This document shows positions 34,301-46,593 of a DNA stretch of 64,000 nucleotides, piece after piece. Position 1 is the first letter of the stretch, and every line of letters begins with the position of its first letter. Origin of the DNA: an uncultured Methanosarcinales archaeon. Lineage in GTDB: Archaea; Nanobdellota; Nanobdellia; Woesearchaeales; JAGVZT01. The notes under the pieces are model-generated. The model saw only the letters and a list, made by a program, of their open reading frames with translations, did no database searches and was not told the DNA's origin. Location: the NCBI GenBank assembly GCA_964444505.1, contig CAYUHF010000007.1, positions 6,720 through 70,719 on the forward strand. The letters are read 5' to 3'. The position numbers were made by a program, and so were the translations under genes.

Positions 34301-37300
34301 TCCACAGCACTCCGAGGCAGTTCCAGAGTTGTATTCTCCAAATTGTGATGATTCTCCTCCCTGGACATAATCAAGACCACATAATGCCCCAGTACATGTT
34401 GTAGAATCAGCATCACAGTCCCTCCACTCGCCAGCAATACATATCGCACCAGGAATACTATCTGCATCCGGGTCACCTTTTGTATCTTCAATATAGCAGT
34501 CTCCACCATATACGCAATCATTCTCCCCACTGCAACAAAACTTATCTGAAGGATCTGAACCTCCTACACAGTTATTATCATAAATATCAGAGCATGCACT
34601 TCCTCCCTGATCAACCAAGTAGGTGAAATATTCTGAATCATCATCTCCGCAGCAAATTCCGTTTGATTTAATATTATAACAGGAAGTCCCTGGGGGACAG
34701 TTCTCTGCAAAGTTTTCTATTGGCTGCGAAACATCCACGTTTGGATAGTATCCTGTTTCATTATCACAGCACTGCGGGCTTGAATCAGGGTCGCATTCCT
34801 GATCCTCACACTGGCATGTATCATAGTCACATTCCTGATTGCCTGAACATGCTGTGCTTCCATCACATGTTGCAGTGCAATTCTCAAAAGTACATACTGC
34901 AGGCCCACAATCTGCTGCCATATCTCCGGTATCTTCAACACACATACCGTAGTTTGGATAGTATTTATTTCCATCACATTCTGTATCACACCATCGGCAA
35001 CCTGCTGTTGCACAGTCGACTGAGTTTTCAATTTCAGAACAAGTGCTTGGGATACATGTTATTGAGTGGGATTTATCTGTTCCATTCTGGTATGATCTGT
35101 CCCATGGTTCAGTTGGAGAGGAATATACTCCACAAACAACATGTACTGTATCCTGACCGTCGCAATCTATTTGCTCATTATTGAAATAAACTTCACCATA
35201 GGTCGGATCCCAAGTATCATCTCCATCTTCCCAGCTCAGATCCTCGTCACCTGAACTCCACACACCATTCTGATCCCTGTCAACATACGCAAAAATACTA
35301 TTATATCCTCTATCTTTTGGTGCTGTCGGATCAACTGTACAAGTAATGTCAATATCATTACCTGATACTACTTCTGCTGCCGAGAGTGAGATATCAATTA
35401 TTCCTACATCGCATCCATCATCTCCATGCTCAGGATCATTCATATTATCATAATCAGTCAAATCATCCCCGTCATTATCGATACCATCATTACAGTTACC
35501 TGCGATGTGAGATTCCTCTGTCAAGCAGTTTGGATCTTCATCGTCCGTCAGACCGTCACAGTCATTGTCAATATCATCATCACAATTCACACCCAGCGTT
35601 TCAGTACCAGATCTGCAATTGTTTGTTCCATCAACGCATGTATTCCCGTCTGCACAGCATCTGGGTTCACCAACTCCTGCTGTAATGTAATTCTCACCTG
35701 CATCGTCTTCACAACATTCCTCTTCGGCACCTGTGTCGTATTCACCAAATTGAACAGATTCACCACCATAAACATAGTTATAGTCACAGATTGTCTCGCA
35801 AGCATAATTATTTGAGTCACAATCCGACCACCTTCCAGGATTATCACCTGACAAATCCCAATCGTTACACCATTCACCCAGTACACCATCTCCGTCAATA
35901 TCTGCCATATCAAGATCATTATAACAAGTGCTCTCAAAGACACATTGTTGACTTTGAGGGCAACAAGTACCGTCTGTAACATCATCACTTTTTCCGACAC
36001 ACACAGGATTAGTTATGTCGTTGCATCCATTTGTGGCATATTGGTCATAGTAAACATAATATTCTTGGTTATCATCTCCACAGCAAGCTGCATTTCCTTC
36101 AAGAAATGTCCAATCTTCGCTATAACAACTACCAGACGAAGACGCAGGACATTGGTTGTCAAAAACACTTGGTTCATTATCAGTATTCATATTAGGTAAA
36201 TAACTTCCTTCACTATCACAGCAAGCTTGGCTTAAATCAGGATCACATGGTGTTGCTTCATAGCAGTTGCCACTGGCATCAACTATTTTATCTGACTCAT
36301 TACAACATCTGGCAGGGTTTACACCATCATTGATATAGTATTCGTTAGGGTCGTCACCACAGCATTCTTCTTCAGAATCAAAATTACATCCCAGGTTTTC
36401 ACACTCTGTCTTATCACTTAAAACTGAACAATCACCCATATTTGTACACTCATCTAAAAAACTGTCCCATGCACATCCCGCTTCACTTAAGCCATTACAG
36501 CAGGATAATGATCCTCCACAAGCAGCATAGCAATCAAATGTTCCAGAGCAACGCAATTCATATTCTCCATGGTCTGTTAATTCACCTGAATAAGCTACTC
36601 CTGTATTAACTCCTTCTGAGGCTCCCCACTCTTCACAATAATCATAGTCAGGATCTATCCAATATCTATCCTTACAATAGAAACTTTGAGATATTGAATT
36701 CCCATTGCAATTCATATCCTCTCCATATCTAAAAGTTGTATCACTAGGATAACAGCAACGTGGACCAACAATAGGATATGCACCCCCTATACAATCTGTC
36801 TCTGACTGACAGCAAGCAACACTATTGGTGTTGTGTACCTCAGAAGTATCATCCTCATCAGTGTAAGCCATATTATGTATAGCATAATCAAATAAACCAT
36901 CACAACAAACTGGTGAGCTAGCATTCACTATAATTTCAGTTTTTCCCCATTGGGCCCAGTCGTATCCTGTATCTCCCTCCCAGGAATTTCTTTCAGGATG
37001 TGTAGTAAACCAAAATCGTTGGATTGATCCAGCATAATTACTAAGATCTACAGCAAAAGGTACCCACCCTGTATCATTTACTAAAAGTCCACTCCATACA
37101 ACGCTATCAGATACGCTATTGAGATCCATTTTTGAAGTGGTGCTTATTCTAATAGTGAACCAAACACCCCCGCTATTTCTGGAACCATCGGCTATACCCG
37201 CATAGCCCACAAGATATGCATCATCCGGAACAAATTTATCGTATATATGTACTGTTGTTCCAGTTCCTACTGCCGTATTCCATGAAGGATGTGCCTGTCT

Positions 37301-38692
37301 TGCGACCATTGCCTCACCCCCCACAGTCGGATATCCAATATTCTGCTGCTGACATACATCCCAGAACATTCCCTCATTAGTTTTTGTCCCATTTCTTCCG
37401 GGTTTTGGATCTGAATAGAAATCACTGTATACATCTCCTGATGACTTAAAGAATTCATTAGCATCATCTCCACAACACCCTGTTTCCAAAAGAATGGAGT
37501 CTCCCGCTCTTATTGCAATGTCATCAAAATAAATTGGCATTCCATCCGCATTGTCGCCATCTGTAACTGCTCTTATTCTGACAGTACCACTAGAATCAGA
37601 TGTAAAATTACATTGCACATATTCCCACTGGTTGTATACGCCAGCAGTGGTTCCTGCATGACACTCATATACTGCATCATGAAGATCAAGATAAGCATTT
37701 CCTGGATAGAAAAGATCAGTCTTTTCTCTGTATATATAGCCTGTGAGATTGAACATTGTATTTTTTGGTACATCAACTTCCTGCCAGGTGCTTACCCCTG
37801 GACCTGTTCCTGTCCAACTGCTCTTCAAAGAGTAACTTCCTGAATGGGCCCTCTCATCAGACCTAGTATGATCAGCATGCTCATTCCAATCTTCAGCATC
37901 GTTACTTGATCCTCTTTCAAATCCTGAGTTTTTAACCACTCCTCTGTATTCTCCATGTGGTGTCCTTTCCCCACTCTGGACTCCCGCGGGACTACCACAA
38001 TATGCATTTGGATAGTCCCAATCCGAATTTGTACAGGCACCACTATCCCAGGAATCACAACTTGGATTACACCAGTTCTTGAACCAATTGTTTGAGTCAC
38101 AGTCAAGCCAGGTCGCTGGCTGGGAATCTGGGGCGGATGGACTTTGATCATAGAGACAATATGCTAGATTATCATTACGACCTGGATGAAGCCCCACATG
38201 AATAAAATCACCGAATTGTGAAAAACTGCTGCCTGATGGATGAGGATCTCCTTCCTTATCAAGGCACTCCGCACTTAAACTAACTCTGGTATCAGCGTGG
38301 TTACAAAAACCTATTGTCTGATATCCCCACTTGTCAATGTGAGCACATCTGTTAACAAAAAAGCCAGAGAATATAGTGTCATTGTCACAGTCCTCCGGAT
38401 AATCTGGATTCGAGGGATTACAACCATCCTCACAGCTTCTCGCATCATAAAAGCCAGGCTCTCCAATTACCTGTGTACATGTTTGCCCGTCTGCCTCATC
38501 AAAAGTACCACATGCATTACATGTGCATGAATCTTCTCCTCGACTGCATTCAAAATAATTTTCTCCCCATGAAGGGGGTTGGTAACAGCAAACAACAGTT
38601 TCCCCAGCAACTTGTAAGACTAAAAATAGACATAATACACTAATTATCCAAAAATGCTTCCTCATATCCAGCCTCTTTTTTATTTTTTTCAA
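28388..38692 (-). CDS. giant secreted cysteine-rich surface protein (3434 aa)
   Basis: The start shows a Sec signal peptide. A CBM4/9-like jelly-roll domain (GFERGS..W..AHSGSYSLK) follows. There are more than 10 CCGDD...CC...CY modules and three ~460-aa tandem repeats. A C-terminal carboxypeptidase-regulatory-like domain is present. The protein has no TM anchor other than the signal peptide. Confidence 0.85.
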   Translation of the reverse strand: MKKIKKRLDMRKHFWIISVLCLFLVLQVAGETVVCCYQPPSWGENYFECSRGEDSCTCNACGTFDEADGQTCTQVIGEPGFYDARSCEDGCNPSNPDYPEDCDNDTIFSGFFVNRCAHIDKWGYQTIGFCNHADTRVSLSAECLDKEGDPHPSGSSFSQFGDFIHVGLHPGRNDNLAYCLYDQSPSAPDSQPATWLDCDSNNWFKNWCNPSCDSWDSGACTNSDWDYPNAYCGSPAGVQSGERTPHGEYRGVVKNSGFERGSSNDAEDWNEHADHTRSDERAHSGSYSLKSSWTGTGPGVSTWQEVDVPKNTMFNLTGYIYREKTDLFYPGNAYLDLHDAVYECHAGTTAGVYNQWEYVQCNFTSDSSGTVRIRAVTDGDNADGMPIYFDDIAIRAGDSILLETGCCGDDANEFFKSSGDVYSDFYSDPKPGRNGTKTNEGMFWDVCQQQNIGYPTVGGEAMVARQAHPSWNTAVGTGTTVHIYDKFVPDDAYLVGYAGIADGSRNSGGVWFTIRISTTSKMDLNSVSDSVVWSGLLVNDTGWVPFAVDLSNYAGSIQRFWFTTHPERNSWEGDTGYDWAQWGKTEIIVNASSPVCCDGLFDYAIHNMAYTDEDDTSEVHNTNSVACCQSETDCIGGAYPIVGPRCCYPSDTTFRYGEDMNCNGNSISQSFYCKDRYWIDPDYDYCEEWGASEGVNTGVAYSGELTDHGEYELRCSGTFDCYAACGGSLSCCNGLSEAGCAWDSFLDECTNMGDCSVLSDKTECENLGCNFDSEEECCGDDPNEYYINDGVNPARCCNESDKIVDASGNCYEATPCDPDLSQACCDSEGSYLPNMNTDNEPSVFDNQCPASSSGSCYSEDWTFLEGNAACCGDDNQEYYVYYDQYATNGCNDITNPVCVGKSDDVTDGTCCPQSQQCVFESTCYNDLDMADIDGDGVLGEWCNDWDLSGDNPGRWSDCDSNNYACETICDYNYVYGGESVQFGEYDTGAEEECCEDDAGENYITAGVGEPRCCADGNTCVDGTNNCRSGTETLGVNCDDDIDNDCDGLTDDEDPNCLTEESHIAGNCNDGIDNDGDDLTDYDNMNDPEHGDDGCDVGIIDISLSAAEVVSGNDIDITCTVDPTAPKDRGYNSIFAYVDRDQNGVWSSGDEDLSWEDGDDTWDPTYGEVYFNNEQIDCDGQDTVHVVCGVYSSPTEPWDRSYQNGTDKSHSITCIPSTCSEIENSVDCATAGCRWCDTECDGNKYYPNYGMCVEDTGDMAADCGPAVCTFENCTATCDGSTACSGNQECDYDTCQCEDQECDPDSSPQCCDNETGYYPNVDVSQPIENFAENCPPGTSCYNIKSNGICCGDDDSEYFTYLVDQGGSACSDIYDNNCVGGSDPSDKFCCSGENDCVYGGDCYIEDTKGDPDADSIPGAICIAGEWRDCDADSTTCTGALCGLDYVQGGESSQFGEYNSGTASECCGDDDNENYVSDGVGDPRCCQDGKNCVDSLNLCRDEFGVQESQCNDGNDTDCDGEWDYDTQNRGASGPSPHGDDGCPVGIDSITLSDTEVISGRKLNITCNVNPTAPAGTGYDSIFAYIDRNGNGIYDAGDTDFTWDSDDYWPNDDEVVFRNETINCLSAPSVDIACGVYNDSREKYNRSYQNGPDVWQTVTCLEGCGDLEEGDCNADPQCTWCDQECDGPKYYPDYLTCVDASTGCADPVCTQGKCIVDGCGMSGGCTLPATCDTDTCLCTDEECDPDAGQQCCDNETGYYPNVDVSQPIENFAENCPPGSSCYDIGFGVGTQGLCCGDDQDEFFEYRHCHTSGAGMFCPADVTTDNSCCDNTDDCVYNGDCYAALNIGYHLGIGDSESDAVCIAEAGDGKWYDCDNSSTTCAYCDSGTNLPDCSGIDCYVESGEDFGHGEYQPGETECCGDDVDEIYVTAGLGPERCCSDLSNCVDLTGHCQTEWDRELTCDDGIDNDCDGLTDLEDPHCQTEESHIAGNCNDGIDNDGDGETDYDNRDGIHGDDGCDVGIIDISLSAPEVVSGSDIDITCTVDPTAPSGQGYDSIFAYIDRDQNGVYSSGDEDLGWEDGDDTWSATYDDVYFNNEQIDCDGQDTVHIVCGVYSGNDAETIDRSHQNGTDKNQSITCIPGTCSEIDNPTDCATAGCRWCDTECDGNKYYPNYGTCVEDTGDMAADCGPAVCTFENCTATCDGSTACSGYQECDYDTCQCEDQVCNPDTFTDGGIPDSACCDNETGLVPSDQVDNNIDEFMDACPPGSSCYSTSWIFESGVANCCGDDFFENYVECYDSDNSNNAWCSGADEACCSSATDCVNTTGDCVVQGQCHGFGTGHKSYCSNARWQDPDELQSYCDSTCDTTAGDMGIDWTAGGGQLNCCGDDEDEYYNYFRLFRPNMPQEEDHGKAQNDTTDNACCTGADKCVFNGICYDPGEYIDYDNDGREDYFCLPESQGDDGSWLNLDYAIGVCEPTYFWNVGGEAVSEDGYYYDAFGHTRPNFCNIASGDHASQMCCCGDDANEEYNYRRDYAASTCNDRTNENCTGGSNSGDEACCDNSGDCVFDGDCYASGTMLDVNLDTVAGERCVSGEWRDCDGSQSFCENQCGFDYAENGETSSFGEYDLSTSTECCGDDLSEYYVFRDVQDQGDSSIVTDTNDDACCDKETDCVFNGECFENSTTIWVDGGQHEVMCYEGGWYDIDDENYCLENDYGWQIGGEVGGDECCGDDVPEFIRYEESLEEHVSGLSEIEFDDNEDACCDSQTDCVNGSNCYSSNTQNEGQSDIIEATTGNLNIGGNDTYSHCYSGLDSNGNGTWLDCDDADFMDFWCADICGPQNPPKLYGDRTYAPDTDHNAVTAGESNVGEYYDLTTPRCCGDDSFEYYKNFTKYVGGANAFVNKELNTEACCREDNNCVDKDNLCVQENNAGFLNDTDDYDRVAYCGEALESDQWIDCDYEMAKCTGCNALLGTVGLEAHWTRAGEFVGEYTNVLDDYECCGDDLNETYKYLKRNADVNNDISMVWPDDPNTNGCCNNTNDCVNVSGACYEDNENANNFNPTGNDNIALCEPGFDRWYDCDSGSAQCQLCDLNWTQNGETFSFGEYDLSTSTECCGDDLGETFRFREVVSTSKESLIEGFFMDRINYSDNACCDNETDCVFEGKCYKDYDIVYAQLELDEQQLASECSQYEDNDNPRIDMKECNEDDRCQWVDGECRIRIYNQHDLHDQIYTDIDGDGWQELCDPGEWHFGDTNAVFFGWVKNSTGQGVPNATVEFVGYDDVRKVTYRYNVTTNGSGYYESYVIANATYDLMASKIGFRSDTVTKQEVEIFDVKEINFTIVWEFEPCESDCTYINDRICHRECNGKVGCEFFDANTTRICNNKNDGWVRAYNSTHEIICCEGEPYETQELRVVDTAASDVEHLVRQVRVVVFRGKPTKLVIDVFK
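31300..35700 (-). repeat. three ~1.38-kb tandem intragenic repeats; copies 1 and 3 are near-identical
   Basis: The DNA string acagttacctgcgatgtgagattcctctgt (encoding TEESHIAGNC) recurs at ~32740 and ~35490. Antisense ORFs 31942..32154 and 34717..35031 are near-identical. Confidence 0.7.
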
Positions 38693-38785
38693 ACAATTGC
38701 CTTTAAATATTTTCCGATTTAGAATAGTTATTTAGCAGGATACAAATAATTATATATGAATTTCCCAGATTATATTTTCTAGTTT

Positions 38786-39466
38786 TTGGGTGGTAGATTG
38801 ACTATTGACAGAGTATTCGAGATTTGTTTTGAGGGACCTATTGCATCAGGTAAAACAACCTGCGCCAGACATCTTAAAAAAAACTTGGGTGCCGGCGGAT
38901 TTAGATTAGTGCATGAAGACCCATATGAGAATGAGTTCTTTGGGGATTATTACAGGGCTATGGTGGCTGTGCGTGCAGGAAAACCCGTTCCCTCAGATAT
39001 TGAAGAAGGAATATTTTACATGGCCCAGGACAGGTTTCTTGACTTGACTGTAGAGAGAGAAAGTGCAGGCAATAGTGTGAATAGGGTATCAGACCGGCAT
39101 GTATGGGCTGACATTAATATCTTTGCTGAGGGACTTATAGAAAGAGGTTTGTTTTCACCAGAACACGCCTGCATGTACAGAAAAAAAGCATCAACTATAA
39201 ATATTAATTATCCTGACTTTTTGGTATATCTTGCCACAAGTGATCTGGTTTGTTACCATAGGGCACAAAACCGAAGCAGAGATGAAGAGATGAATGTTTC
39301 ATTTTCGCATTTCGAGTTTATTGGTCAGCGGTACAGGGAGCTGATGCCCACATATCCGGGAAGAGTTTTAACACTTCCAACTGATGAACTTAATCTTGAA
39401 TCTGAGCCTGATGATATCAACTATATGCTTGAACAAGTAGCAGGAGCTCTGGCAAAATTAAATTGA
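38786..39466 (+). CDS. deoxynucleoside kinase (dNK family)
   Basis: P-loop FEGPIASGKTT plus VSDRHVWAD (ERS/DRS-type motif); 226 aa. Confidence 0.7.
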   Translation: MGGRLTIDRVFEICFEGPIASGKTTCARHLKKNLGAGGFRLVHEDPYENEFFGDYYRAMVAVRAGKPVPSDIEEGIFYMAQDRFLDLTVERESAGNSVNRVSDRHVWADINIFAEGLIERGLFSPEHACMYRKKASTININYPDFLVYLATSDLVCYHRAQNRSRDEEMNVSFSHFEFIGQRYRELMPTYPGRVLTLPTDELNLESEPDDINYMLEQVAGALAKLN

Positions 39467-40809
39467 TCAAGATTGGAAAAGATCCGTATCTAAAAAAAGA
39501 AATACACAAAGTTCTCTTTGATGACCGTCCCAAGGTTCAGTACTTTAACCAGTCTGATGTTTATCTTGGCCATCCGAGTTCAAATATTGCTGTTGCATTT
39601 ATTTACACCTGGAAAGATGACCACCCTCCAGAACATGTCAAAAAGTTCATGGAAAAACTCTCAAACTACGCATATATTTCTGGTTTCTGGCGAACCACAA
39701 ATGGTGCCAGGTATGTGTTTTCTAATATTCTTGCAAATCCTAATGTGAACAAGCTTTTTGTTTTTGTGTTTGACTACAAGGACAATGGTCATGCTCTTGT
39801 GAATGCCTTGAAAAACTTCTGGAAAAACGGGATAAGAAATGACGGCACAATAAAGGGCTCAATTGCACAAAACCCCAAGTTTGAGCAGATACCTCATGAT
39901 GCACTCCAGAGGATAAGAAAACAGTGTGATCTGGTTGTGGTTGATAAGATAGACAAAAAAGAGTTTGGCAAGATTGAATATATGGTGAAAAACTCAATTA
40001 ATGAGCCAAAAAATCCTGTCAATCTGGAAGAGTGTGAGCTTTCGCCTGTGTTTATTTCAAATGTTGTTGATAAAAAAATTCTTTATGATGATGGAGCCAG
40101 GTTTAAGGAACCATACCACATTGATCTGTCACAGAATGCCTCAACTGTGGAATACAGGGAGAGAAATCTTTCAAATGTTCTTGGCCAGTCTATCCAGGCA
40201 GAAACCCTTGATGAAGCACTGAAATCTGCTGTTGCCTTTATTTTCAAGAATGGTTCTGTTCATGTTGATGACAGGGGGATTATTACAATTGAGTGCAGAA
40301 GCTTTACAGTTACTATTACTGATGCTCTATCAAAAGTGCCTGATGGTTTTTCAAATGGCTATATTAAAAATTATGTTGAAGAGTTTATGGAAGGGCCCAA
40401 AAACCCTATGGAGTACAATTATCACGAGAGAATCTTCAAGCGATGGGGAAATCAGGTAGAAAGAGTTGTTGAGATGCTTGAGGATCATTCTTCAACACGG
40501 AGGATGGTTATTTCTCTTTGGGACCAGAAAAGTGATCTTGAGAATCCGTGTCCCCCTTGCCTTGATATTATCTGGGTGTGCATTCGAAATGACAAGCTGG
40601 AGATGCATGTTTTGTTCAGGAGTCATCATATAGCTACTGTTACAGAGGATGGAAAACTGATGAAAGGCGAGGGTGCTTTTGTTCCAAATATTATTGCACT
40701 TGTTAATCTCCAGAATTACATTGCCAAGAAACTGGAAGTGGAGAGAGGTGCTTTTGTTTTGTCTGAGTTTTCGGGTCATTTATACACAAGCAAGGTGAAA
40801 AATGGGTAA
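39463..40809 (+). CDS. thymidylate synthase-fold enzyme (ThyA/dUMP hydroxymethylase family) with ~210-aa N-terminal domain of unknown function
   Basis: The C-terminal half aligns to the ThyA core: RRMVISLWDQ..NPCPPCLDIIWVC..LFRSHHIA..GAFVPNIIALVNL..GHLY. This corresponds to SRR..W, PPCH, YQRSxD, PFNIASYALL and GDAHIY. Start and stop overlap the neighbouring genes. Confidence 0.6.
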   Translation: MIKIGKDPYLKKEIHKVLFDDRPKVQYFNQSDVYLGHPSSNIAVAFIYTWKDDHPPEHVKKFMEKLSNYAYISGFWRTTNGARYVFSNILANPNVNKLFVFVFDYKDNGHALVNALKNFWKNGIRNDGTIKGSIAQNPKFEQIPHDALQRIRKQCDLVVVDKIDKKEFGKIEYMVKNSINEPKNPVNLEECELSPVFISNVVDKKILYDDGARFKEPYHIDLSQNASTVEYRERNLSNVLGQSIQAETLDEALKSAVAFIFKNGSVHVDDRGIITIECRSFTVTITDALSKVPDGFSNGYIKNYVEEFMEGPKNPMEYNYHERIFKRWGNQVERVVEMLEDHSSTRRMVISLWDQKSDLENPCPPCLDIIWVCIRNDKLEMHVLFRSHHIATVTEDGKLMKGEGAFVPNIIALVNLQNYIAKKLEVERGAFVLSEFSGHLYTSKVKNG

Positions 40810-41461
40810 ACTAATTGTTCTAGAGGGATTGGATGGTTCTGGTAAGCTGACGCAGCTGAAGATGCTGAAAGAGAGACTTATTAAAGATGGTTATCCTGTT
40901 GACACTTTTGACTTTCCCCAGTATGATTCTTTTTTTGGTGCTCTTGTGGGTAAATACCTGCGGGGTGAATTTGGTTCTATGGTTGAACTTCCAGTTGAGA
41001 TTCCGACTCTGTTGTATGCTCTTGACAGGTACTATGTGAGGGATGATATTGAAGAGTCTCTTGAGGAAAATATTGTTCTTCTTAATAGATACACTCCTTC
41101 AAATACCTGTTTTCAGGGTGCAAAGCTTAAGGGTAAGGACCGAGACAAGTTTATCAAGTGGGTTGGTGCTGTCGAGGCAAGGCTTCCACGACCTGACCTT
41201 GTGCTGTTTCTTGATGTTCCAAGATATATTGCAAGAAATCTAATTGGAAACAAGGATCTTAGAAAGTACCTGAATGGAAAAAAGCAGGATATTCATGAGA
41301 AAAATGATCCTTACCAGGAAGAGGTTGAGAGTCTTTACAGAAGACTTGTGAGGGAGAGGAAAAACTGGATCGGTATCAAATGTGTTGAGTATGACCTACT
41401 GCTAAAGGTGGAGGAAATTCATGATAAAATATGGAAGGTAGTAAAACGGGAGTTAGGGTAG
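40802..41461 (+). CDS. tmk: thymidylate kinase
   Basis: IVLEGLDGSGKLTQ P-loop, ALDRYY (DRY motif) and an LNRYTPS lid. Confidence 0.8.
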   Translation: MGKLIVLEGLDGSGKLTQLKMLKERLIKDGYPVDTFDFPQYDSFFGALVGKYLRGEFGSMVELPVEIPTLLYALDRYYVRDDIEESLEENIVLLNRYTPSNTCFQGAKLKGKDRDKFIKWVGAVEARLPRPDLVLFLDVPRYIARNLIGNKDLRKYLNGKKQDIHEKNDPYQEEVESLYRRLVRERKNWIGIKCVEYDLLLKVEEIHDKIWKVVKRELG

Positions 41462-42111
41462 AATTTGTTGGGCCAAAGTGCAGCGGAAAGAGTGTTCTTC
41501 TGAAGGCACTAAAATGCTGGTCATTGCAGCAAGGGCTAGGAATAGTTGACATGGAGAGCTATTGGAAGAGATATCAAAGGTATCCTGAGTTTGATGATTC
41601 ATTTGCTAGTTTATATGATGTTGTTTTGACTGTGGAACCAACATGGGTTGGTGCTGGCAGATCTATAAGGGAGAGATTTGGCGGTGAGTACCAGGAGGTT
41701 TTGCTTCCTGGCAAGAGTGCTCAGGACAGAGGAGATCATTATGGTAGTCTTATAGAACCTGCTCTTGAAAATGGTTTTTATGTTTTCCAGGAAGGCGGAC
41801 TTGCAGAGGATATAGTAAGGTGGGGTGTAGATGTTCTTGATTTTCAGGGAAACCAGATATCAATGCAAAGACATCCTGATTATGTTTTCTTGACAAGGTG
41901 CAGTCCGATTACTGCTGCGCTAAGGATAGACAAGGAGACATGTTCAAACAGAGGCACTTACAGTATTGATGAGATTGTTAAAGAGCATCAGGCATACAGG
42001 ATGGTTGAAGAAGCTGGTATTTATGACAATCTTATTGTTTTTGACACTGAAGATTCAGTTCTCAATACCAAAATGAAGATTATTGAAATGTGGGAAAGCT
42101 TGGTTGAGTGA
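41431..42111 (+). CDS. Tmk-like P-loop nucleotide kinase (divergent paralog A)
   Basis: GPKCSGKS P-loop plus VEPTWVGAGRSIRE, which matches KEPTQNYVGRAISE in 42695..43372. Confidence 0.5.
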   Translation: MEGSKTGVRVEFVGPKCSGKSVLLKALKCWSLQQGLGIVDMESYWKRYQRYPEFDDSFASLYDVVLTVEPTWVGAGRSIRERFGGEYQEVLLPGKSAQDRGDHYGSLIEPALENGFYVFQEGGLAEDIVRWGVDVLDFQGNQISMQRHPDYVFLTRCSPITAALRIDKETCSNRGTYSIDEIVKEHQAYRMVEEAGIYDNLIVFDTEDSVLNTKMKIIEMWESLVE

Positions 42112-42232
42112 TTCTTGTACAAAGAATAGTCTCCATATAGCAACTCTGTTTGTGGAATCCTCCAAATAGTTCTTTGATTGCCAGCCATTCGATTGGAACC
42201 ATTATGCACAAAGCTTTATTATCTTTAGCCAG

Positions 42233-42600
42233 CCTACCTCGGCACAGACGGCCACTTGCGTGTGTCCTATTCCATTAACCTTGTGTATTCGGTTAATTCC
42301 ATCTGGCCAAGGCTGGCCATAGAGGGATTCCTAAATATTATTGGAGCTGTCTTTTATGAATAATTCTTAGGGATAGAAATTAAATACCATGGCTTAATAT
42401 GGTGATGTCAACTATTTCTTTCGATCTAATTTTATCCTTTTTTTGGTCGCTTGCAGTATTTGAGCAAGCTATGCACGTTTGCTTGTGCACTGCACAACCT
42501 CGGCAAGGCATTATGAGTTTTCTGCAGAAATAAGAAGTTCCTGGCCAGATGGAGTTAAACGGAATAGGCCATACGCAAATGGCCGTCTGTGCCAGGTAGG
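42233..42600. repeat. MITE-like element bounded by ~20-bp inverted repeats
   Basis: cctacctcggcacagacgg (42233..42251) matches the reverse complement of ccgtctgtgccaggtagg (42583..42600). The interior contains a TGGCCA-AGGC-TGGCCA hairpin and a ggtcgcttgca motif. Confidence 0.35.
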
Positions 42601-42694
42601 AATTTCCAATAAACATTTTGCTAACAACAATACAACCTCACATAACTTGACACAACCTAAAACTATATAAACTCGAAATACCAATTAGTTCTCT

Positions 42695-43372
42695 ATGGGG
42701 AAATTTGTGATTGTAGATGGTATTGACGGCTCTGGAAAAGGGGCTGTTATGGATGCTTTCAGGGAGTGGACAGAAGAAAAGGAACTCTCATCTATTGATG
42801 TTAGTGAGTACTGCAGAAAACATGAGACTTTCCCGGATATTTCTGAGTATGATGTTGTTTTTTCAAAGGAGCCTACCCAGAATTATGTTGGAAGGGCAAT
42901 TTCTGAAGAGTTTATAAAAGATAGAAGCTATAGTGTTACTTCTACTGCATGGGCTTTTGCTCTTGACAGGGAGATTTTGTACAAAAAAGTTATTATTCCT
43001 GCTCTCAAGGCTGACAAGTTTATTTTCCAGGAAAGAGGTATAACAACGTCTCTTGTTTACCAGCCAGTGCAGGGGAGAATAACCTTAAAGGAACTGATTG
43101 GTATTCCTGGAAACAGGCTTGCCATAAAAAACCAGCCTGATCTTGTTATTGTGACAAAGGTTGAACCCAAGGTTGTTATCCAGAGGATGAGGGTTTCGGG
43201 CAAGCTTGGTTCTGACAGGTTCAGTGAACTGAATTTCCAGAGAAAGATTGACCAGAGATATTCAAGTCCGTGGTTAAGAAAGGTTTTTTCTGACAAGATA
43301 AGGTATATTGATACAAATCCTCCGAATACTGTTAGTGACACCAAGAAAAAGGCAATTGAATATGCTTTCTGA
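42695..43372 (+). CDS. Tmk-like P-loop nucleotide kinase (divergent paralog B)
   Basis: IVDGIDGSGKG P-loop, ALDRE motif and QERGITTSLVYQ. Confidence 0.55.
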   Translation: MGKFVIVDGIDGSGKGAVMDAFREWTEEKELSSIDVSEYCRKHETFPDISEYDVVFSKEPTQNYVGRAISEEFIKDRSYSVTSTAWAFALDREILYKKVIIPALKADKFIFQERGITTSLVYQPVQGRITLKELIGIPGNRLAIKNQPDLVIVTKVEPKVVIQRMRVSGKLGSDRFSELNFQRKIDQRYSSPWLRKVFSDKIRYIDTNPPNTVSDTKKKAIEYAF

Positions 43373-44021
43373 GATCTTTGGTTCAAGTGGTGTAGTTCTG
43401 TCTCACAGAATACCGATCATTGATGGGTCTAAGACAAAAATAGAAGTTTCTTCTGGAAGTAGTTACTGGGGTCTATCTGATATTCTTGATGCAATTGACA
43501 AGGTGCATTCAGAAAATCATGATAAGCATGTACCTTCCAGTTTTGTTGATGGTAATGTTATGGCTCCAGAATGGGACATTCCAATAGGACTGCCCAGCCT
43601 TGATCATGTGCTGCAGGAGAATAATAATTACCCCACTCTTGACAGGGTTATTGATGAGTATCCTGAGATACTGCAGTATGCTGCTGCCAATATTTATAGG
43701 GTTGAGAGATTTGAGCAGTACAACGAGAACACTATTTACTCTTATTTTTCACAGGAAAACGAGAGCTACTATCTTTTCACTCCTGACTGGGTGACTGTTG
43801 TGAGGGCATCGCAGGCTGAACTTGGACATGGTGTTCTGGGATTGGCTATGCCTGGAACTAATGTCATCAAGATTCTTGATACATTGTATGGAAATGACTA
43901 TGTTGAGGTAAAGCAGCATGAACTACTGCACATTTTTTTCCCGCACAAGTCAGAGCCTGAGATAAGAAAAATGACTCCCTGGCACCTGAATTTTCTCCCA
44001 AAATTCCACAAGGCGCAGTAA
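43362..44021 (+). CDS. hypothetical protein with HELLH (HExxH) motif
   Basis: VKQHELLHIFFPHKSEPE. The start is taken at MLSEIF, overlapping the upstream kinase gene. Confidence 0.4.
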   Translation: MLSEIFGSSGVVLSHRIPIIDGSKTKIEVSSGSSYWGLSDILDAIDKVHSENHDKHVPSSFVDGNVMAPEWDIPIGLPSLDHVLQENNNYPTLDRVIDEYPEILQYAAANIYRVERFEQYNENTIYSYFSQENESYYLFTPDWVTVVRASQAELGHGVLGLAMPGTNVIKILDTLYGNDYVEVKQHELLHIFFPHKSEPEIRKMTPWHLNFLPKFHKAQ

Positions 44022-44639: not shown

Positions 44640-45065
44640 TTGATGTGTTTTATGCAAGGTATTGATACTGCTGTGAAAGCAATAATCATGAGGGATAATA
44701 GGGTTCTTATTCTAAAAGCAGAGGATAATGGTATTTTATGGACAGATCTTCCTGGAGGAAGGATGGAATACGGTGAATCACCGACTGAAGCACTTAAGAG
44801 AGAAGTAAGAGAAGAAACAACACTTGATATTGAAGTTGGAGATATTTTAGGTGCATGGTGGTTTTTCCGATCTCTTGATGGTTCACAGGTTATCTGCATT
44901 ACATATCTTTGTGATTCAGTTGGTGAGGTTGATATCACATGCAATCCTGCTGATGAAGATGTATGCAGCTACGAGTGGGTCGATATTGATGATCTAGATA
45001 GTCTGAAGAACCTTCCTCATGAAAGTATAAAAGAGATTTTCAGAAAGATCAAAGATATGCATTGA
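44640..45065 (+). CDS. NUDIX hydrolase
   Basis: Nudix box GGRMEYGESPTEALKREVREETTL. Confidence 0.8.
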   Translation: MMCFMQGIDTAVKAIIMRDNRVLILKAEDNGILWTDLPGGRMEYGESPTEALKREVREETTLDIEVGDILGAWWFFRSLDGSQVICITYLCDSVGEVDITCNPADEDVCSYEWVDIDDLDSLKNLPHESIKEIFRKIKDMH

Positions 45066-45351
45066 TTTTTTTCTTAAGTATTGTTCTTAGTTCGGGGTCG
45101 TTGTAAGAGTAAGTGTCTGGGATACTCAGGTTTATTATTCTGTTCATGTTGTAGAGTTTGGGAAACTCTCTTTCTATCGTCCTCCTGTGCCATGATTCCA
45201 TCACAAAAACAACATCTGCCCACTCCAGCTGCTTTTTTGTGATATAGTTGTTTAGAATTCCAGCTGAGTCAACATTGTGCTTATCTTTAAAGAGGTCTTC
45301 TGCTGTCTTGCTCCTGTGCTGGTTCATGGAACAGACGAATAATAGGTTCAT
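45049..45351 (-). CDS. LMW protein-tyrosine phosphatase / ArsC-like (short)
   Basis: LLFVCSMNQHRS (CX5R(S) P-loop) with a downstream DP motif. The start is taken at MNLLFVC. Confidence 0.5.
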   Translation of the reverse strand: MNLLFVCSMNQHRSKTAEDLFKDKHNVDSAGILNNYITKKQLEWADVVFVMESWHRRTIEREFPKLYNMNRIINLSIPDTYSYNDPELRTILKKKINAYL

Positions 45352-45388
45352 ATTAATATTATTGTGTGTCTTGTTTAAATAGTTTTTG

Positions 45389-45955
45389 TTAATGATAACC
45401 GCAGGAAGCAAGAGACCTTTTTTCTTTAGAGATTTTTGCCAGTCTTTCCACATGTCTAATTTTTTCATCAAGTCGCATATCTCCTGATCCAAAAAAATAA
45501 CATTCTGAGTCTTTACAATGCTCAACAAGATGGATATGCTTTGCTTCATGATTTCCGACAATTCTTGCTAGATAAAAACCATTAGAAGTATCTAATCCAT
45601 AAGAAGAACAAATAACCTCACCACTCCACTGCTTTCCCCTGGTATACTTGTCTCGGACATTTATACCAAGAACTGCTTCATGACCTTTATGATCAAAAAA
45701 GGGCATGTCTGTGATGGTAAGTCTCCAATAGTCTGTTAATCCTCTTGTTGCAGCAAGACATCTTAAGTAATTTTCCAACCGGTCTCCTTTCAATTGCTGC
45801 ACTCTCGTCTCAAGATCAACAATATCAATTGTGTCTGGCTCTATTCTAAATTTGTATCCAATTTCTCCTGCTTTTTCTGTGAATCCCACAATGTAGCCGT
45901 TTACAGTATCAGTATTCACGTTTGGACTAATGTTTAGTTTTAATCTCATATCCAT
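45389..45955 (-). CDS. hypothetical protein with GNHE (metallophosphoesterase-like) motif
   Basis: IVGNHEAKH. The C-terminal end overlaps the out-of-frame 45049..45561 ORF, so a frameshift or fusion is possible. Confidence 0.35.
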   Translation of the reverse strand: MDMRLKLNISPNVNTDTVNGYIVGFTEKAGEIGYKFRIEPDTIDIVDLETRVQQLKGDRLENYLRCLAATRGLTDYWRLTITDMPFFDHKGHEAVLGINVRDKYTRGKQWSGEVICSSYGLDTSNGFYLARIVGNHEAKHIHLVEHCKDSECYFFGSGDMRLDEKIRHVERLAKISKEKRSLASCGYH

Positions 45956-46047: not shown

Positions 46048-46593
46048 ATGTATTTTGTCACTGGAAATCCCGGAAAGTTTAGAGAAGCCAAAGAGATTAT
46101 TCCAGAGCTCAAGCAGATTGAGCTTGATTTGACAGAGATTCAGGAGTTTGATATGCAGAAGATTGTCAAGGCAAAACTAATTGAAGCTTCCAAAAAAGTT
46201 GAGGGTGAAGTTGTGGTTGAGGATACTGGACTTTTTCTTGATTGTCTGAATGGTCTTCCAGGTCCTATGATCAAGTGGTTTTTGAAAAGAGTCGGCAACA
46301 AGGGTTTGTTTGAGATTTGTGATAGTCTGGGTCAATATGGTGCTAAGGCTAAGACAGTTGTAGGATTGTATGATGATGATTTTCATTTTTATGAAGGTTG
46401 TGTCAGGGGAAAGATTGTTTCTCCTAGAGGAGAGGGTTTTGGGTGGGATCCTGTTTTCCAGCCTGAAGGTTATTCTAAAACTTTTGGTGAGATTGGTTTT
46501 AAGAATGATATTAGTATGAGAAGGAAGGCTTTTGAAAAGTTATGGACAGACCGGGACTTTCAAGACGACAAGTCTCAAAAAGGCCATGCATAG
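46048..46593 (+). CDS. non-canonical purine NTP pyrophosphatase (Ham1/ITPase)
   Basis: Ham1 family; the N-terminus is MYFVTGNPGKFRE. Confidence 0.85.
   Translation: MYFVTGNPGKFREAKEIIPELKQIELDLTEIQEFDMQKIVKAKLIEASKKVEGEVVVEDTGLFLDCLNGLPGPMIKWFLKRVGNKGLFEICDSLGQYGAKAKTVVGLYDDDFHFYEGCVRGKIVSPRGEGFGWDPVFQPEGYSKTFGEIGFKNDISMRRKAFEKLWTDRDFQDDKSQKGHA

What the first reader, a model, noticed from the sequence alone, without database searches (positions are those of the whole stretch)
38786..44021. Translationally coupled dNK / ThyA-fold / Tmk + two divergent Tmk-like kinases island: candidate non-canonical pyrimidine deoxynucleotide system
- Gene content and order:
  - Deoxynucleoside kinase (38786..39466)
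  - Thymidylate-synthase-fold enzyme (39463..40809)
  - Canonical thymidylate kinase (40802..41461)
  - Two mutually paralogous, divergent Tmk-like P-loop kinases (41431..42111 and 42695..43372; shared VEPTxVGxxRSI/KEPTxxVGRAIS block)
  - An HExxH protein (43362..44021) closing the run
- The first three genes have overlapping stop/start codons (ATGA-type coupling), so they form one operon.
- A NUDIX hydrolase, a LMW phosphatase and an ITPase follow within 2.5 kb.
- One dNK plus one Tmk would suffice for salvage in a reduced genome. Three Tmk-fold kinases alongside a ThyA-fold enzyme resemble phage hypermodified-pyrimidine systems, which pair dUMP/dCMP hydroxymethylases with dedicated dNMP or hmU-DNA kinases. 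Such a system is, to my knowledge, not described in archaea.
- This is an inference from domain content.
Basis: partly seen in the sequence, partly recalled or inferred. Interest (0 to 1): 0.8.

Follow-up and report, generated by a model that had tools for sequence, protein, structure and literature searches.

The report
Thymidylate operon with MtrA-ThyA fusion
This is a native thymidine-nucleotide supply operon of a small DPANN (Woesearchaeota-like) archaeon, not a demonstrated modified-DNA system. Its one unusual part is a conserved, apparently undescribed enzyme that joins a corrinoid-protein-like (MtrA) domain to an archaeal thymidylate synthase domain.

Summary
The six ORFs exist as described. 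Their families are confirmed for dNK, the ThyA-fold protein, Tmk1 and one Tmk-like kinase (TmkL_B).

- **Third kinase.** The "third Tmk" (TmkL_A, 41431-42111) has no orthologue among 1.84 billion representatives. It has lost most dTMP-binding and catalytic residues.
- **HExxH, LMW phosphatase, ITPase.** None is conserved next to the cluster. A NUDIX homologue recurs in one other locus.

What related genomes show:
- The fusion occurs in at least 130 Woesearchaeota/Nanoarchaeota protein clusters and in no viral contig.
- A Tmk gene follows it directly in 14 of about 32 loci.
- The order dNK-FUS-Tmk1-TmkL_B recurs in four genomes.
- In 11-12 loci the fusion sits beside a canonical thymidylate synthase plus SHMT (ThyA-DHFR in nine, ThyX in two or three).

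Best reading: a thymidylate salvage and synthesis operon. The fusion does Cys-dependent C5 chemistry on dUMP, most likely making dTMP with help from the MtrA-like domain. A 5-hydroxymethyl-dUMP-type product is not excluded (about 0.1). No paper describing this fusion was found in the open-access library searched.

The parts
38750..38757 (+). TATA-like box (TTATATAT), about 30 nt upstream of the dNK start. Putative archaeal promoter of the dNK-FUS-Tmk1-TmkL_A unit.
   Evidence: Read directly from the sequence. Inference only; no promoter model for archaea was run.
38786..39466 (+). Deoxynucleoside kinase (dNK), 226 aa, TTG start.
   Evidence: PF01712, 86 bits. Best solved relatives are insect and bacterial dNK/dGK. 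Orthologues lie directly upstream of FUS in L002, L009 and L014.
39463..40032 (+). FUS N-terminal MtrA-like domain (aa ~1-190). The D107-N108-G109-H110 motif is invariant.
40183..40809 (+). FUS C-terminal compact methanogen-type ThyA domain (aa ~241-448), joined to the N-domain by a linker carrying the conserved LYDDGARF motif.
40802..41461 (+). Tmk1, a thymidylate kinase of the eukaryote/archaeal/M. tuberculosis type, overlapping FUS by 8 nt.
   Evidence: PF02223, 77 bits; NF005923, 120 bits. Best PDB matches are human TMPK (E 4e-15) and M. tuberculosis TMPK. Orthologues lie directly after FUS in L001, L002, L009, L014, L024, L026, L034 and L035.
41431..42111 (+). TmkL_A, an orphan and degenerate duplicate of the TmkL_B family.
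   Evidence: No Pfam or NCBIfam hit. 28% identical to TmkL_B. Best non-self hit among 1.84e9 representatives is 31% identical, E 6e-14; the one hit cross-identified (P0233) is a TmkL_B-family protein. The stacking Phe, motif Arg, Ser, Tyr and Gln of the dTMP site are replaced by S, G, D, R and W.
42232..42605 (.). Inverted-repeat element inside the 583-bp gap. Not a demonstrated part of the system.
   Evidence: Arms 42241-42281/42553-42593 (85% complementary) and 42290-42309/42542-42561. RNA fold z -9.4 on the + strand and -7.8 on the - strand. No Rfam or tRNA hit.
42664..42671 (+). TATA-like box (TATATAAA), about 27 nt upstream of the TmkL_B ATG. Putative second promoter giving a leaderless transcript.
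   Evidence: Read from the sequence. Inference only.
42695..43372 (+). TmkL_B, a bacterial-type thymidylate kinase family conserved across Woesearchaeota.
   Evidence: TIGR00041, 83.3 bits (cut-off 83.25); PF02223, 66 bits. 407 homologues, 47-63% identical among the 120 listed. Keeps the equivalents of S. aureus Tmk F66, R70, R92, S97, Y100 and Q101. Directly follows FUS in L006, L007, L018, L028 and L036.
43362..44021 (+). HExxH-containing ORF (219 aa from the ATG at 43362). Co-transcribed by position, but not a conserved member.
   Evidence: No Pfam, NCBIfam, PHROG, PADLOC or PDB match. No counterpart in any related locus.
44640..45065 (+). NUDIX hydrolase, loosely associated.
   Evidence: PF00293, 73 bits; weak NudG/MutT-like hits. 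A 34%-identical NUDIX lies next to FUS in L028.
46048..46593 (+). ITPase (Ham1/RdgB). A neighbour, not conserved with the cluster.
   Evidence: PF01725, 128 bits. Absent from related loci.

Best explanation
The island is the native thymidylate-supply operon of a Woesearchaeota-type DPANN archaeon.

**Proposed flow (inferred).**
- dNK phosphorylates salvaged deoxynucleosides, giving dUMP and dTMP.
- The fusion protein FUS binds dUMP and performs Cys366-initiated chemistry at C5, as all ThyA-family enzymes do. The most likely product is dTMP.
- Tmk1 and/or TmkL_B, which are translationally coupled to FUS, convert the product to the diphosphate.

**Role of the MtrA-like domain (inferred).**
- The FUS catalytic domain is a compact methanogen-type ThyA.
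- It lacks the C-terminal lid, and His replaces the pterin-binding Asp169.
- The always-present N-terminal MtrA-fold domain is therefore inferred to hold or recycle the cofactor that supplies the C1 unit or the reducing equivalents.
- Candidates are a corrinoid on His110, or a flavin or pterin.

**Other parts.**
- TmkL_A is a decaying or neofunctionalised private duplicate.
- The HExxH, phosphatase and ITPase genes are neighbours, not parts.

**Shown:** gene families, active-site residues, fold, the fusion's conservation, and synteny. **Inferred:** substrate flow, product identity and the cofactor role.
For: **Families and organism.**
- Gene families.
- Homologues are all Woesearchaeota/Nanoarchaeota.
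- The rest of the window is ordinary archaeal chromosome with the same GC content.

**FUS catalytic domain.**
- It keeps the equivalents of ThyA C146, R126/R127, R166, S167, N177, H207 and Y209. All but Y441 (105 of 110) are invariant across the 110 sequences.
- It aligns end to end with a methanogen-type ThyA (E 1e-23).

**Coupling to a Tmk.** A Tmk gene lies immediately downstream in 14 loci, often overlapping or within about 10 nt. Both Tmk types retain dTMP-site residues.

**Neighbourhood.** It is thymidylate and dNTP metabolism throughout: Dut, NrdG, SHMT, DHFR, FolC-like, ThyA or ThyX.

**One hint of redundancy.** In L024 the ThyA domain of FUS has decayed while a canonical ThyA-DHFR-SHMT operon is present. 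This fits FUS and ThyA doing the same job.

**N-domain.**
- His84 equivalent invariant.
- As conserved as the catalytic domain: 53% against 55% mean identity.
Against: - FUS is co-encoded with a canonical ThyA or ThyX plus SHMT in 11-12 of about 32 loci, and in one operon in L018, L034 and L036. That is odd for two isofunctional enzymes in reduced genomes.
- TIGR03283 scores 113 bits, below its 174.55 cut-off.
- MtrA Glu54 is replaced by Thr, and no corrinoid, MtrH or methyl-donor gene was seen nearby.
- To my knowledge, not checked here, no methanogen-type ThyA has had full dTMP synthesis reconstituted in vitro.
- Whether this genome has another thymidylate synthase is unknown, because only 64 kb is available.
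Confidence: 0.55

Rival explanations
1. FUS is a dUMP hydroxymethylase or other non-reductive C5-modifying enzyme. It uses SHMT-derived methylene-folate, works in parallel with the canonical ThyA or ThyX, and one Tmk paralogue (TmkL_B or Tmk1) is the dedicated kinase for the modified dUMP. Some thymine in Woesearchaeota DNA would then be replaced or supplemented by a modified base.
For: - FUS coexists with canonical ThyA or ThyX, and SHMT ends about 10 nt before FUS in L018, L034 and L036.
- Two distinct Tmk families lie in the FUS locus in four genomes (window, L002, L009, L014).
- The lid-less active site and the Asp169-to-His and His147-to-Leu changes differ from reductive ThyA.
Against: - By sequence the domain is methanogen-type ThyA.
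- Both Tmks keep the ordinary thymine-site residues.
- There are no glycosyl-, amino- or phospho-transfer DNA-modification genes, no dTMPase and no thymidylate synthase inhibitor nearby.
- No viral relatives were found.
- In L024 the FUS catalytic domain has decayed where canonical ThyA is present, which fits redundancy.
- The MtrA-like domain has no role in this scheme.
Confidence: 0.12
2. FUS is not a nucleotide-producing enzyme in vivo. On this view the ThyA-like domain serves as a dUMP/dTMP-binding sensor, or as a scaffold in a dNTP-synthesis complex. Alternatively the MtrA-like domain carries the main, unknown activity. The kinase cluster would then be ordinary salvage genes that happen to be adjacent.
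For: - The N-domain survives on its own. It is fused to a MafI2-like domain in bacterial contigs (L025, L031), and it sits beside a decayed ThyA domain in L024.
- No cofactor-supply genes are linked to FUS.
Against: - All of the catalytic and substrate-binding ThyA residues checked are invariant across 110 sequences 45-60% identical to the window protein, except Tyr441 (105 of 110). That argues for catalysis.
- FUS is tightly translationally coupled to Tmk genes.
Confidence: 0.15
3. The island is an anti-virus defence or horizontally acquired viral module that manipulates nucleotide pools.
For: - Weak PADLOC hits: VakA to dNK and Tmk1, and PDC-S07 to NUDIX.
- The upstream kinase-like gene c2 in related loci resembles the N-terminus of anti-phage dCTP deaminase (31 bits).
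Against: - GC content equals the flanks.
- The cluster is conserved in chromosomal context across species-level genomes.
- No IMG/VR relative was found.
- The PADLOC scores are those expected for generic P-loop and NUDIX folds.
- No integrase or mobile-element genes flank the cluster.
Confidence: 0.03

Closest known systems
Methanogen-type thymidylate synthase (NCBIfam TIGR03283; e.g. ORF59 of Methanobacterium virus PhiF1)
   Same: The same compact domain of about 200 aa. It aligns end to end (31% identity, hhalign E 1e-23). It shares the TRR, P-C-L, R-S-H, P-N and H-x-Y motifs, and it also lacks the canonical C-terminal lid.
   Different: - FUS always carries an extra N-terminal MtrA-like domain of about 190 aa plus a conserved linker.
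- It has R-S-H-H instead of R-S-H-D.
- It has a 12-residue insertion before the Asn motif.
- It scores below the family cut-off (113 against 174.55 bits).
- It occurs in non-methanogenic DPANN archaea, next to folate-cycle genes.
MtrA and the cytoplasmic MtrA homologues of methanogens (PF04208; PDB 5l8x, 5laa)
   Different: - Only about 27% identical.
- Thr replaces Glu54, the hydrogen-bond partner of His84.
- There is no transmembrane helix and no mtr genes nearby.
- It is fused to a nucleotide-modifying enzyme.
- Corrinoid binding is untested.
Bifunctional DHFR-TS of protozoa and plants
   Same: An N-terminal cofactor-handling alpha/beta domain is fused to a C-terminal ThyA-family domain. 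The fusion links the two halves of a cofactor cycle.
   Different: The N-domain is MtrA-fold, not DHFR. Separate DHFR genes coexist in many FUS loci. The analogy rests on architecture only.
Phage dUMP/dCMP hydroxymethylase plus dNMP-kinase modules (SPO1/T4-type; general knowledge) and phage HY126 flavin-dependent dCMP hydroxylase (PDB 9iqc/9iqu)
   Different: - FUS has the uracil-specifying Asn.
- By sequence it groups with archaeal ThyA.
- It has no viral relatives.
- Its kinases look like ordinary Tmks.
- No downstream DNA-modification genes are present.
Genomes with two thymidylate synthases (ThyA plus ThyX in mycobacteria; ThyA plus ThyB in Bacillus subtilis; general knowledge)
   Same: Two enzymes acting on dUMP coexist in one genome.
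   Different: Here the second enzyme is a new fusion architecture. It is often in the same operon as the canonical enzyme and SHMT.

Membership tests
ThyA family (PF00303) / methanogen-type ThyA (TIGR03283) | Profile score at or above the curated cut-off | tested here: inconclusive
   PF00303 scores 30.0 bits against a 24.3 cut-off, so it passes. TIGR03283 is the top NCBIfam hit at 112.9 bits but falls below its 174.55 cut-off.
ThyA family | Catalytic Cys nucleophile in the P-C motif (E. coli C146) | tested here: met
   C366 in 'PPCL' aligns with the canonical 'PPCH' and is invariant in 110 sequences.
ThyA family | dUMP-binding residues: R126'/R127', R166/S167, N177 (uracil), H207/Y209 (3'-OH) | tested here: met
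   R346/R347, R386/S387, N409 and H439/Y441. Asn rather than Asp argues for uracil, not cytosine.
ThyA family | Folate-site Asp169 and the C-terminal lid that closes over methylene-tetrahydrofolate | tested here: not met
   H389 (invariant) replaces Asp169 and L367 replaces His147. The protein ends 7 residues after Y441, whereas canonical ThyA continues for about 50 residues.
ThyA family | ThyA fold | tested here: met
ThyA family | Catalyses dUMP to dTMP | not testable with these tools
   Needs an enzyme assay or complementation.
MtrA (PF04208) corrinoid-binding domain | Profile score above the cut-off, and the MtrA fold | tested here: met
MtrA corrinoid-binding domain | Cobalt-ligand His84 | tested here: met
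   H110 aligns with His84 (chain residue 87 of 5l8x) and is invariant, within an invariant D-N-G-H motif.
MtrA corrinoid-binding domain | Glu54 hydrogen-bonded to His84, and the meander consensus GAIPF(Y/F)xEN | tested here: not met
   T79 (invariant) replaces Glu54. The meander reads xxNPxFEx, so only Pro and Glu align exactly.
MtrA corrinoid-binding domain | Part of the membrane MtrA-H complex (C-terminal transmembrane helix, mtr operon) | tested here: not met
   There is no transmembrane segment, because the domain is followed by ThyA. No mtr genes occur in the roughly 32 FUS loci examined.
MtrA corrinoid-binding domain | Binds a corrinoid | not testable with these tools
   Needs reconstitution, UV-vis spectroscopy or cobalt analysis.
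dTMP kinase (Tmk; PF02223 / TIGR00041): Tmk1 | Profile score; P-loop; stacking aromatic, Arg to O4, and D/N-R-Y motif | tested here: met
   PF02223 scores 77.4 bits. TIGR00041 scores 74.4 bits, below 83.25. Aligns with human TMPK F72/R76/D96-R97-Y98/S101/F105 as Y/R/N-R-Y/S/F.
dTMP kinase: TmkL_B | Profile score; dTMP-site residues (S. aureus F66, R70, R92, S97, Y100, Q101) | tested here: met
   TIGR00041 scores 83.3 bits against 83.25. F88, R92, R114, S119, Y122 and Q123 are conserved in the family. The P-loop is GSGKG, with no Ser or Thr after the Lys.
dTMP kinase: TmkL_A | Profile score; dTMP-site residues | tested here: not met
   No Pfam or NCBIfam hit. The equivalents of F66, R92, S97, Y100 and Q101 are S, G, D, R and W. 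Only the P-loop and the R70 equivalent remain.
Phage-type hypermodified-pyrimidine system | ThyA-fold enzyme grouping with phage dUMP/dCMP hydroxymethylases | tested here: inconclusive
   By sequence the best phage hit is a methanogen-type ThyA, and the PHROG hits are 'thymidylate synthase' at 51-54 bits. By structure the nearest are a hydroxylase and a hydroxymethylase.
Phage-type hypermodified-pyrimidine system | Dedicated dNMP or hmU-DNA kinase, plus downstream modification or thymine-exclusion genes | tested here: not met
The kinases match only Tmk families.
Phage-type hypermodified-pyrimidine system | Non-canonical pyrimidine present in DNA | not testable with these tools
   Needs LC-MS of nucleosides.
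Deoxynucleoside kinase (PF01712) | Profile score above the cut-off | tested here: met
   86 bits against a 27 cut-off, covering 1-199 of 203 model positions.

The most novel reading that the evidence does not exclude
FUS may be a third mechanistic kind of thymidylate synthase. An MtrA-type domain, carrying a corrinoid on His110 or another redox cofactor, would deliver the methyl group or the reducing equivalents to a lid-less methanogen-type ThyA domain. dTMP synthesis would then not depend on folate as hydride donor.

Read as a 'Rosetta-stone' fusion, it would also link two things that, to my knowledge, are still unexplained: the orphan cytoplasmic MtrA homologues of methanogens, and the full dTMP-forming reaction of methanogen-type ThyA, which has not been reconstituted.
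Probability: 0.15. Interest if true: 0.85.

Novelty: new variant of a known kind. Interest (0 to 1): 0.5.

Why it matters
- **Annotation.** The island itself is ordinary nucleotide housekeeping. The 'three-Tmk modified-DNA system' should not be propagated as an annotation.
- **A missing link.** The MtrA-like::ThyA fusion is conserved, equally constrained in both halves, and not found described in the searched literature. Fusions of this kind usually mark proteins that work together. This one therefore gives a concrete, testable handle on two questions that, to my knowledge, remain open:
  - which cofactor methanogen-type thymidylate synthases really use;
  - what the soluble MtrA homologues outside the Mtr complex do.
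- **DPANN dependence on hosts.** Its regular co-occurrence with ThyA or ThyX plus SHMT in very small genomes says the two dUMP-acting enzymes are not simply redundant. That bears on how DPANN symbionts secure dTTP with scavenged cofactors.
- **Evolutionary inference.** 'MtrA' hits in DPANN genomes should not be read as remnants of methanogenesis.

Tried and rejected
- **RNA in the gap.** Rfam at gathering threshold on the whole window, Rfam at E<=1 on 42050-42750, and ARAGORN on the whole window all found nothing. The gap does not hold a known RNA gene.
- **Pseudogene in the gap.** blastx of the gap against all neighbouring ORFs found no remnant.
- **Other copies of the gap element.** An exact scan of metagenome contigs for the inverted-repeat arm gave 0 hits.
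- **Defence reading.** PADLOC gave only generic P-loop and NUDIX hits, so this reading was rejected.
- **Viral origin.** IMG/VR gave no confirmed relative of FUS. The phage collection gave only distant ThyA or Tmk hits at 24-31% identity. The gene upstream of the PhiF1 viral methanogen-type ThyA is not MtrA-like.
- **Own contig.** A look-up of the window's own FUS protein found nothing on record, so the rest of the 74.8-kb contig could not be read.
- **Literature.** Eight full-text searches found nothing on the fusion. Topics covered were MtrA with thymidylate synthase, Woesearchaeota salvage, Woesearchaeota with Mtr, MJ0757, 'methanogen type', dCMP hydroxylase, AfhB, and DPANN with thymidylate synthase and Tmk.
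- **Ideas considered and dropped.**
  - That the HExxH ORF, LMW phosphatase and ITPase belong to the system: none is syntenic.
  - That most genomes use either Tmk type interchangeably.

Full report
**1. Observation**

| Coordinates | Name used here | Profile evidence |
|---|---|---|
| 38786-39466 | dNK | PF01712, 86 bits |
| 39463-40809 | FUS (ThyA-fold protein) | PF00303, 30 bits; TIGR03283 methanogen-type thymidylate synthase, 113 bits (aa 243-444) |
| 40802-41461 | Tmk1 | PF02223, 77 bits |
| 41431-42111 | TmkL_A | no Pfam or NCBIfam hit |
| 42695-43372 | TmkL_B | PF02223, 66 bits; TIGR00041, 83.3 bits (cut-off 83.25) |
| 43362-44021 | HExxH ORF | no hit |

- The NUDIX, LMW-phosphatase and Ham1/ITPase neighbours are also real.
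- The junctions read directly from the sequence:
  - a 4-nt TTGA overlap between dNK and FUS;
  - an 8-nt ATGGGTAA overlap between FUS and Tmk1;
  - a 31-nt overlap between Tmk1 and TmkL_A;
  - a 583-bp non-coding gap;
  - an 11-nt overlap between TmkL_B and the HExxH ORF.
- TATA-like boxes lie about 30 nt before dNK and about 27 nt before TmkL_B. This suggests two transcription units, which is inference only.

**2.

The 448-aa 'ThyA-fold enzyme' is a fusion.
- Residues about 30-190 match PF04208, the corrinoid-binding subunit A of the methanogen Mtr methyltransferase (49 bits).
- They also match the MtrA crystal structures 5l8x and 5laa (E 3e-11).
- An AlphaFold2 model built from 110 homologues is confident throughout (pLDDT 94.4, pTM 0.82).

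**3. Organism and context**

- The exact FUS protein is on record from a 74.8-kb NCBI contig.
- Every named homologue is from Woesearchaeota, Nanoarchaeota or Nanobdellota.
- The rest of the window is ordinary archaeal chromosome: thermosome, aminoacyl-tRNA synthetases, CCA-adding enzyme, AMP phosphorylase and 2-oxoacid:ferredoxin oxidoreductase.
- GC content is the same as in the island.
- No ThyA, ThyX, DHFR or SHMT lies within the 64 kb.

**4. The kinases**

*Tmk1.*
- It resembles human and M. tuberculosis TMPK (E 4e-15 and 3e-14).
- It keeps the stacking aromatic, the Arg that reads O4, and the N-R-Y motif.

*TmkL_B.*
- It belongs to a large Woesearchaeota family: 407 hits, 47-63% identical among the 120 listed, often annotated as dTMP kinase.
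- It aligns with S. aureus Tmk and keeps the equivalents of F66, R70, R92, S97, Y100 and Q101.
- Its P-loop is GSGKG.

*TmkL_A.*
- It is only 28% identical to TmkL_B.
- Five of those six site residues are replaced, by S, G, D, R and W.
- It lacks the FQRK segment.
- Among 1.84 billion representative proteins its best non-self match is 31% identical (E 6e-14). The one hit cross-identified, P0233, is a TmkL_B-family protein.
- It is therefore a private, degenerate duplicate. 'Three Tmk-fold kinases' is not a conserved property of any system.

**5. Synteny**

About 32 FUS loci were examined: 27 from species-level genomes plus metagenome contigs.

| Feature in the held flank | Loci |
|---|---|
| Tmk gene as the next gene after FUS, often overlapping or within about 10 nt | 14 |
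| Order dNK-FUS-Tmk1-TmkL_B | window, L002, L014, L009 (L009 has one ORF between the two Tmk genes) |
| Canonical 288-aa ThyA (TIGR03284, 296 bits) with DHFR, usually followed by SHMT and sometimes a FolC-like gene | 9 |
| ThyX with SHMT | 2 clear (L018, L036); L008 has a weaker ThyX-like match with no SHMT found |
| dUTPase | 12 |
| NrdG-type activase | 7 |
| Small P-loop kinase-like gene diverging upstream | 17 |

- In L034 the order is ThyA-DHFR-SHMT-FUS-SDR-Tmk, in one direction and with minimal spacers.
- In L018 and L036 it is ThyX-SHMT-FUS-TmkL_B.
- The HExxH ORF, LMW phosphatase and ITPase never recur.
- A NUDIX homologue recurs once, in L028.

**6. The ThyA domain**

Profile alignment to a canonical ThyA and column counts over 110 FUS sequences give these equivalences:

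| FUS residue | E. coli ThyA residue | Role |
|---|---|---|
| C366 | C146 | nucleophile |
| R346/R347 | R126/R127 | dUMP phosphate binding |
| R386/S387 | R166/S167 | dUMP phosphate binding |
| N409 | N177 | specifies uracil |
| H439/Y441 | H207/Y209 | binds the 3'-OH |

- All are invariant in the 110 sequences except Y441, which is conserved in 105.
- H389 replaces the pterin-binding D169 and is invariant. L367 replaces H147.
- A 12-residue insertion precedes the Asn motif.
- The chain ends 7 residues after Y441, so the canonical C-terminal lid is absent.
- The domain aligns end to end with the methanogen-type ThyA of Methanobacterium virus PhiF1 (31% identity, E 1e-23). That protein has R-S-H-D where FUS has R-S-H-H.
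- The best solved structural neighbours are, in order:

**7. The MtrA-like domain**

- It is as conserved as the catalytic domain: 53% against 55% mean identity, and 29% against 32% of columns at least 90% conserved.
- H110 aligns with the MtrA cobalt ligand His84 and sits in an invariant D-N-G-H motif.
- The Pro and Glu of the MtrA 'meander' motif are kept, but Thr replaces Glu54.
- The domain also occurs without an active ThyA partner:
  - in L024 the ThyA half has lost every catalytic motif, next to a canonical ThyA operon;
  - in bacterial contigs it is fused to a MafI2-like domain.
- No corrinoid, MtrH or methyl-donor genes are linked to it.

**8. Interpretation**

The best-supported reading is a thymidylate supply operon.
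- dNK feeds dUMP and dTMP.
- FUS performs Cys-initiated C5 chemistry on dUMP.
- A coupled Tmk phosphorylates the product.
- dTMP is the most economical product, because both Tmks keep thymine-site residues and FUS decays in L024, where ThyA is present.
- The MtrA-like domain is inferred to hold or recycle a cofactor that stands in for the missing folate-site elements.
- I give this reading 0.55.

- For it: FUS is co-encoded and co-oriented with canonical ThyA or ThyX and SHMT, its nearest structural neighbours are non-reductive enzymes, and there are two Tmk families.
- Against it: by sequence FUS belongs with archaeal ThyA, the kinases look ordinary, there are no modification genes, and there are no viral relatives.

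A non-catalytic or other role gets about 0.15, and a defence or viral module about 0.03.

**9. Novelty**

- The island as a whole is a known kind of system.
- The fusion architecture appears undescribed. Eight full-text searches returned nothing on it.
- The MtrA structure paper only notes that MtrA homologues of unknown function exist in non-methanogens.
- Sources annotate FUS as 'thymidylate synthase', as 'MtrA', or as both. This could mislead inferences about methanogenesis remnants in DPANN.

**10. Limits**

- Only 64 kb of this genome is visible, so whether it has another thymidylate synthase is unknown.
- Model coordinates could not be inspected, so the His110-to-Cys366 geometry is unknown.
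- Product, cofactor and kinase specificities are all inferred.

Noticed in passing
window 42232-42605 (inside the 42112-42694 gap): An element of about 370 bp bounded by imperfect inverted repeats (41-nt arms 85% complementary, plus 20-nt arms). It folds far better than shuffles (z -9.4 on the + strand, -7.8 on the - strand). It has no Rfam or tRNA hit, no second copy in the window, and no exact arm match in metagenome contigs. It may be a MITE-like insertion or a structured RNA. Together with TmkL_A it looks inserted, relative to L002 and L014 where Tmk1 and TmkL_B are about 80 nt apart.
   Followed up: partly
window 28388-38692 (- strand): A giant 3434-aa ORF, very rich in Cys, Asp, Asn and Gly. 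It has internally repeated CCGDD/CCDN modules and an N-terminal signal-like segment. It lies immediately upstream of the operon, where related genomes carry a small kinase-like gene instead.
   Followed up: no
L025 7986-8993 and L031 8001-9008 (Desulfobacterales-like bacterial contigs): The FUS N-domain (46-50% identical, D-N-G-H kept) occurs in 330-335-aa bacterial proteins. There it is fused to a C-terminal region annotated PF26541 (MafI2, an immunity-protein family) instead of ThyA.
   Followed up: partly
L024 7986-9131: A FUS orthologue whose N-domain is intact (D-N-S-H). Its ThyA half has lost the TRR, PPC, RSHH, PN and GHxY motifs. It lies between a FolC-like gene and Tmk1, with canonical ThyA-DHFR-SHMT upstream.
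   Followed up: partly
L034 7322-8002: A short-chain dehydrogenase/reductase gene is wedged between FUS and Tmk, overlapping both, in a ThyA-DHFR-SHMT-FUS-SDR-Tmk operon. It could be a pteridine-reductase-type partner. It was seen in this locus only.
   Followed up: partly
L036 3307-4686 and L018 5239-6678: The ThyX genes next to SHMT-FUS encode about 459-480 aa, roughly twice the usual ThyX length.
   Followed up: no
e.g. L001 6572-7153 (-); 15 of 28 clustered loci, and also L033 and L036; absent from the window: A conserved P-loop protein of about 190 aa (AAA_17/AAA_18; NF006226, 54 bits) diverges upstream of FUS. It weakly resembles the kinase-like N-terminus of anti-phage dCTP deaminases (31 bits).
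   Followed up: partly
window 42695-43372 and its family (alignment A3): In most aligned members of the TmkL_B family the P-loop reads G-x-D-G-S-G-K-G, with no Ser or Thr after the Lys, and Q-E-R-G replaces the usual D-R-Y/H motif. The window copy is about 10-15 residues shorter at the C-terminus than its orthologues, where the HExxH ORF overlaps it.
   Followed up: partly
window 45049-45561 and 45389-45955 (both - strand): The two listed ORFs overlap by 173 nt. The LMW-phosphatase match, including the CX5R(S) motif, begins only at residue about 74, so the true phosphatase start is probably an internal Met. The upstream 188-aa ORF has no family match.
   Followed up: no
window 13120-14580 (- strand): An archaeal AMP phosphorylase / thymidine-phosphorylase-like gene (TIGR03327, 535.5 bits; cut-off 535). 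This is another nucleoside-salvage gene, about 24 kb from the operon.
   Followed up: no
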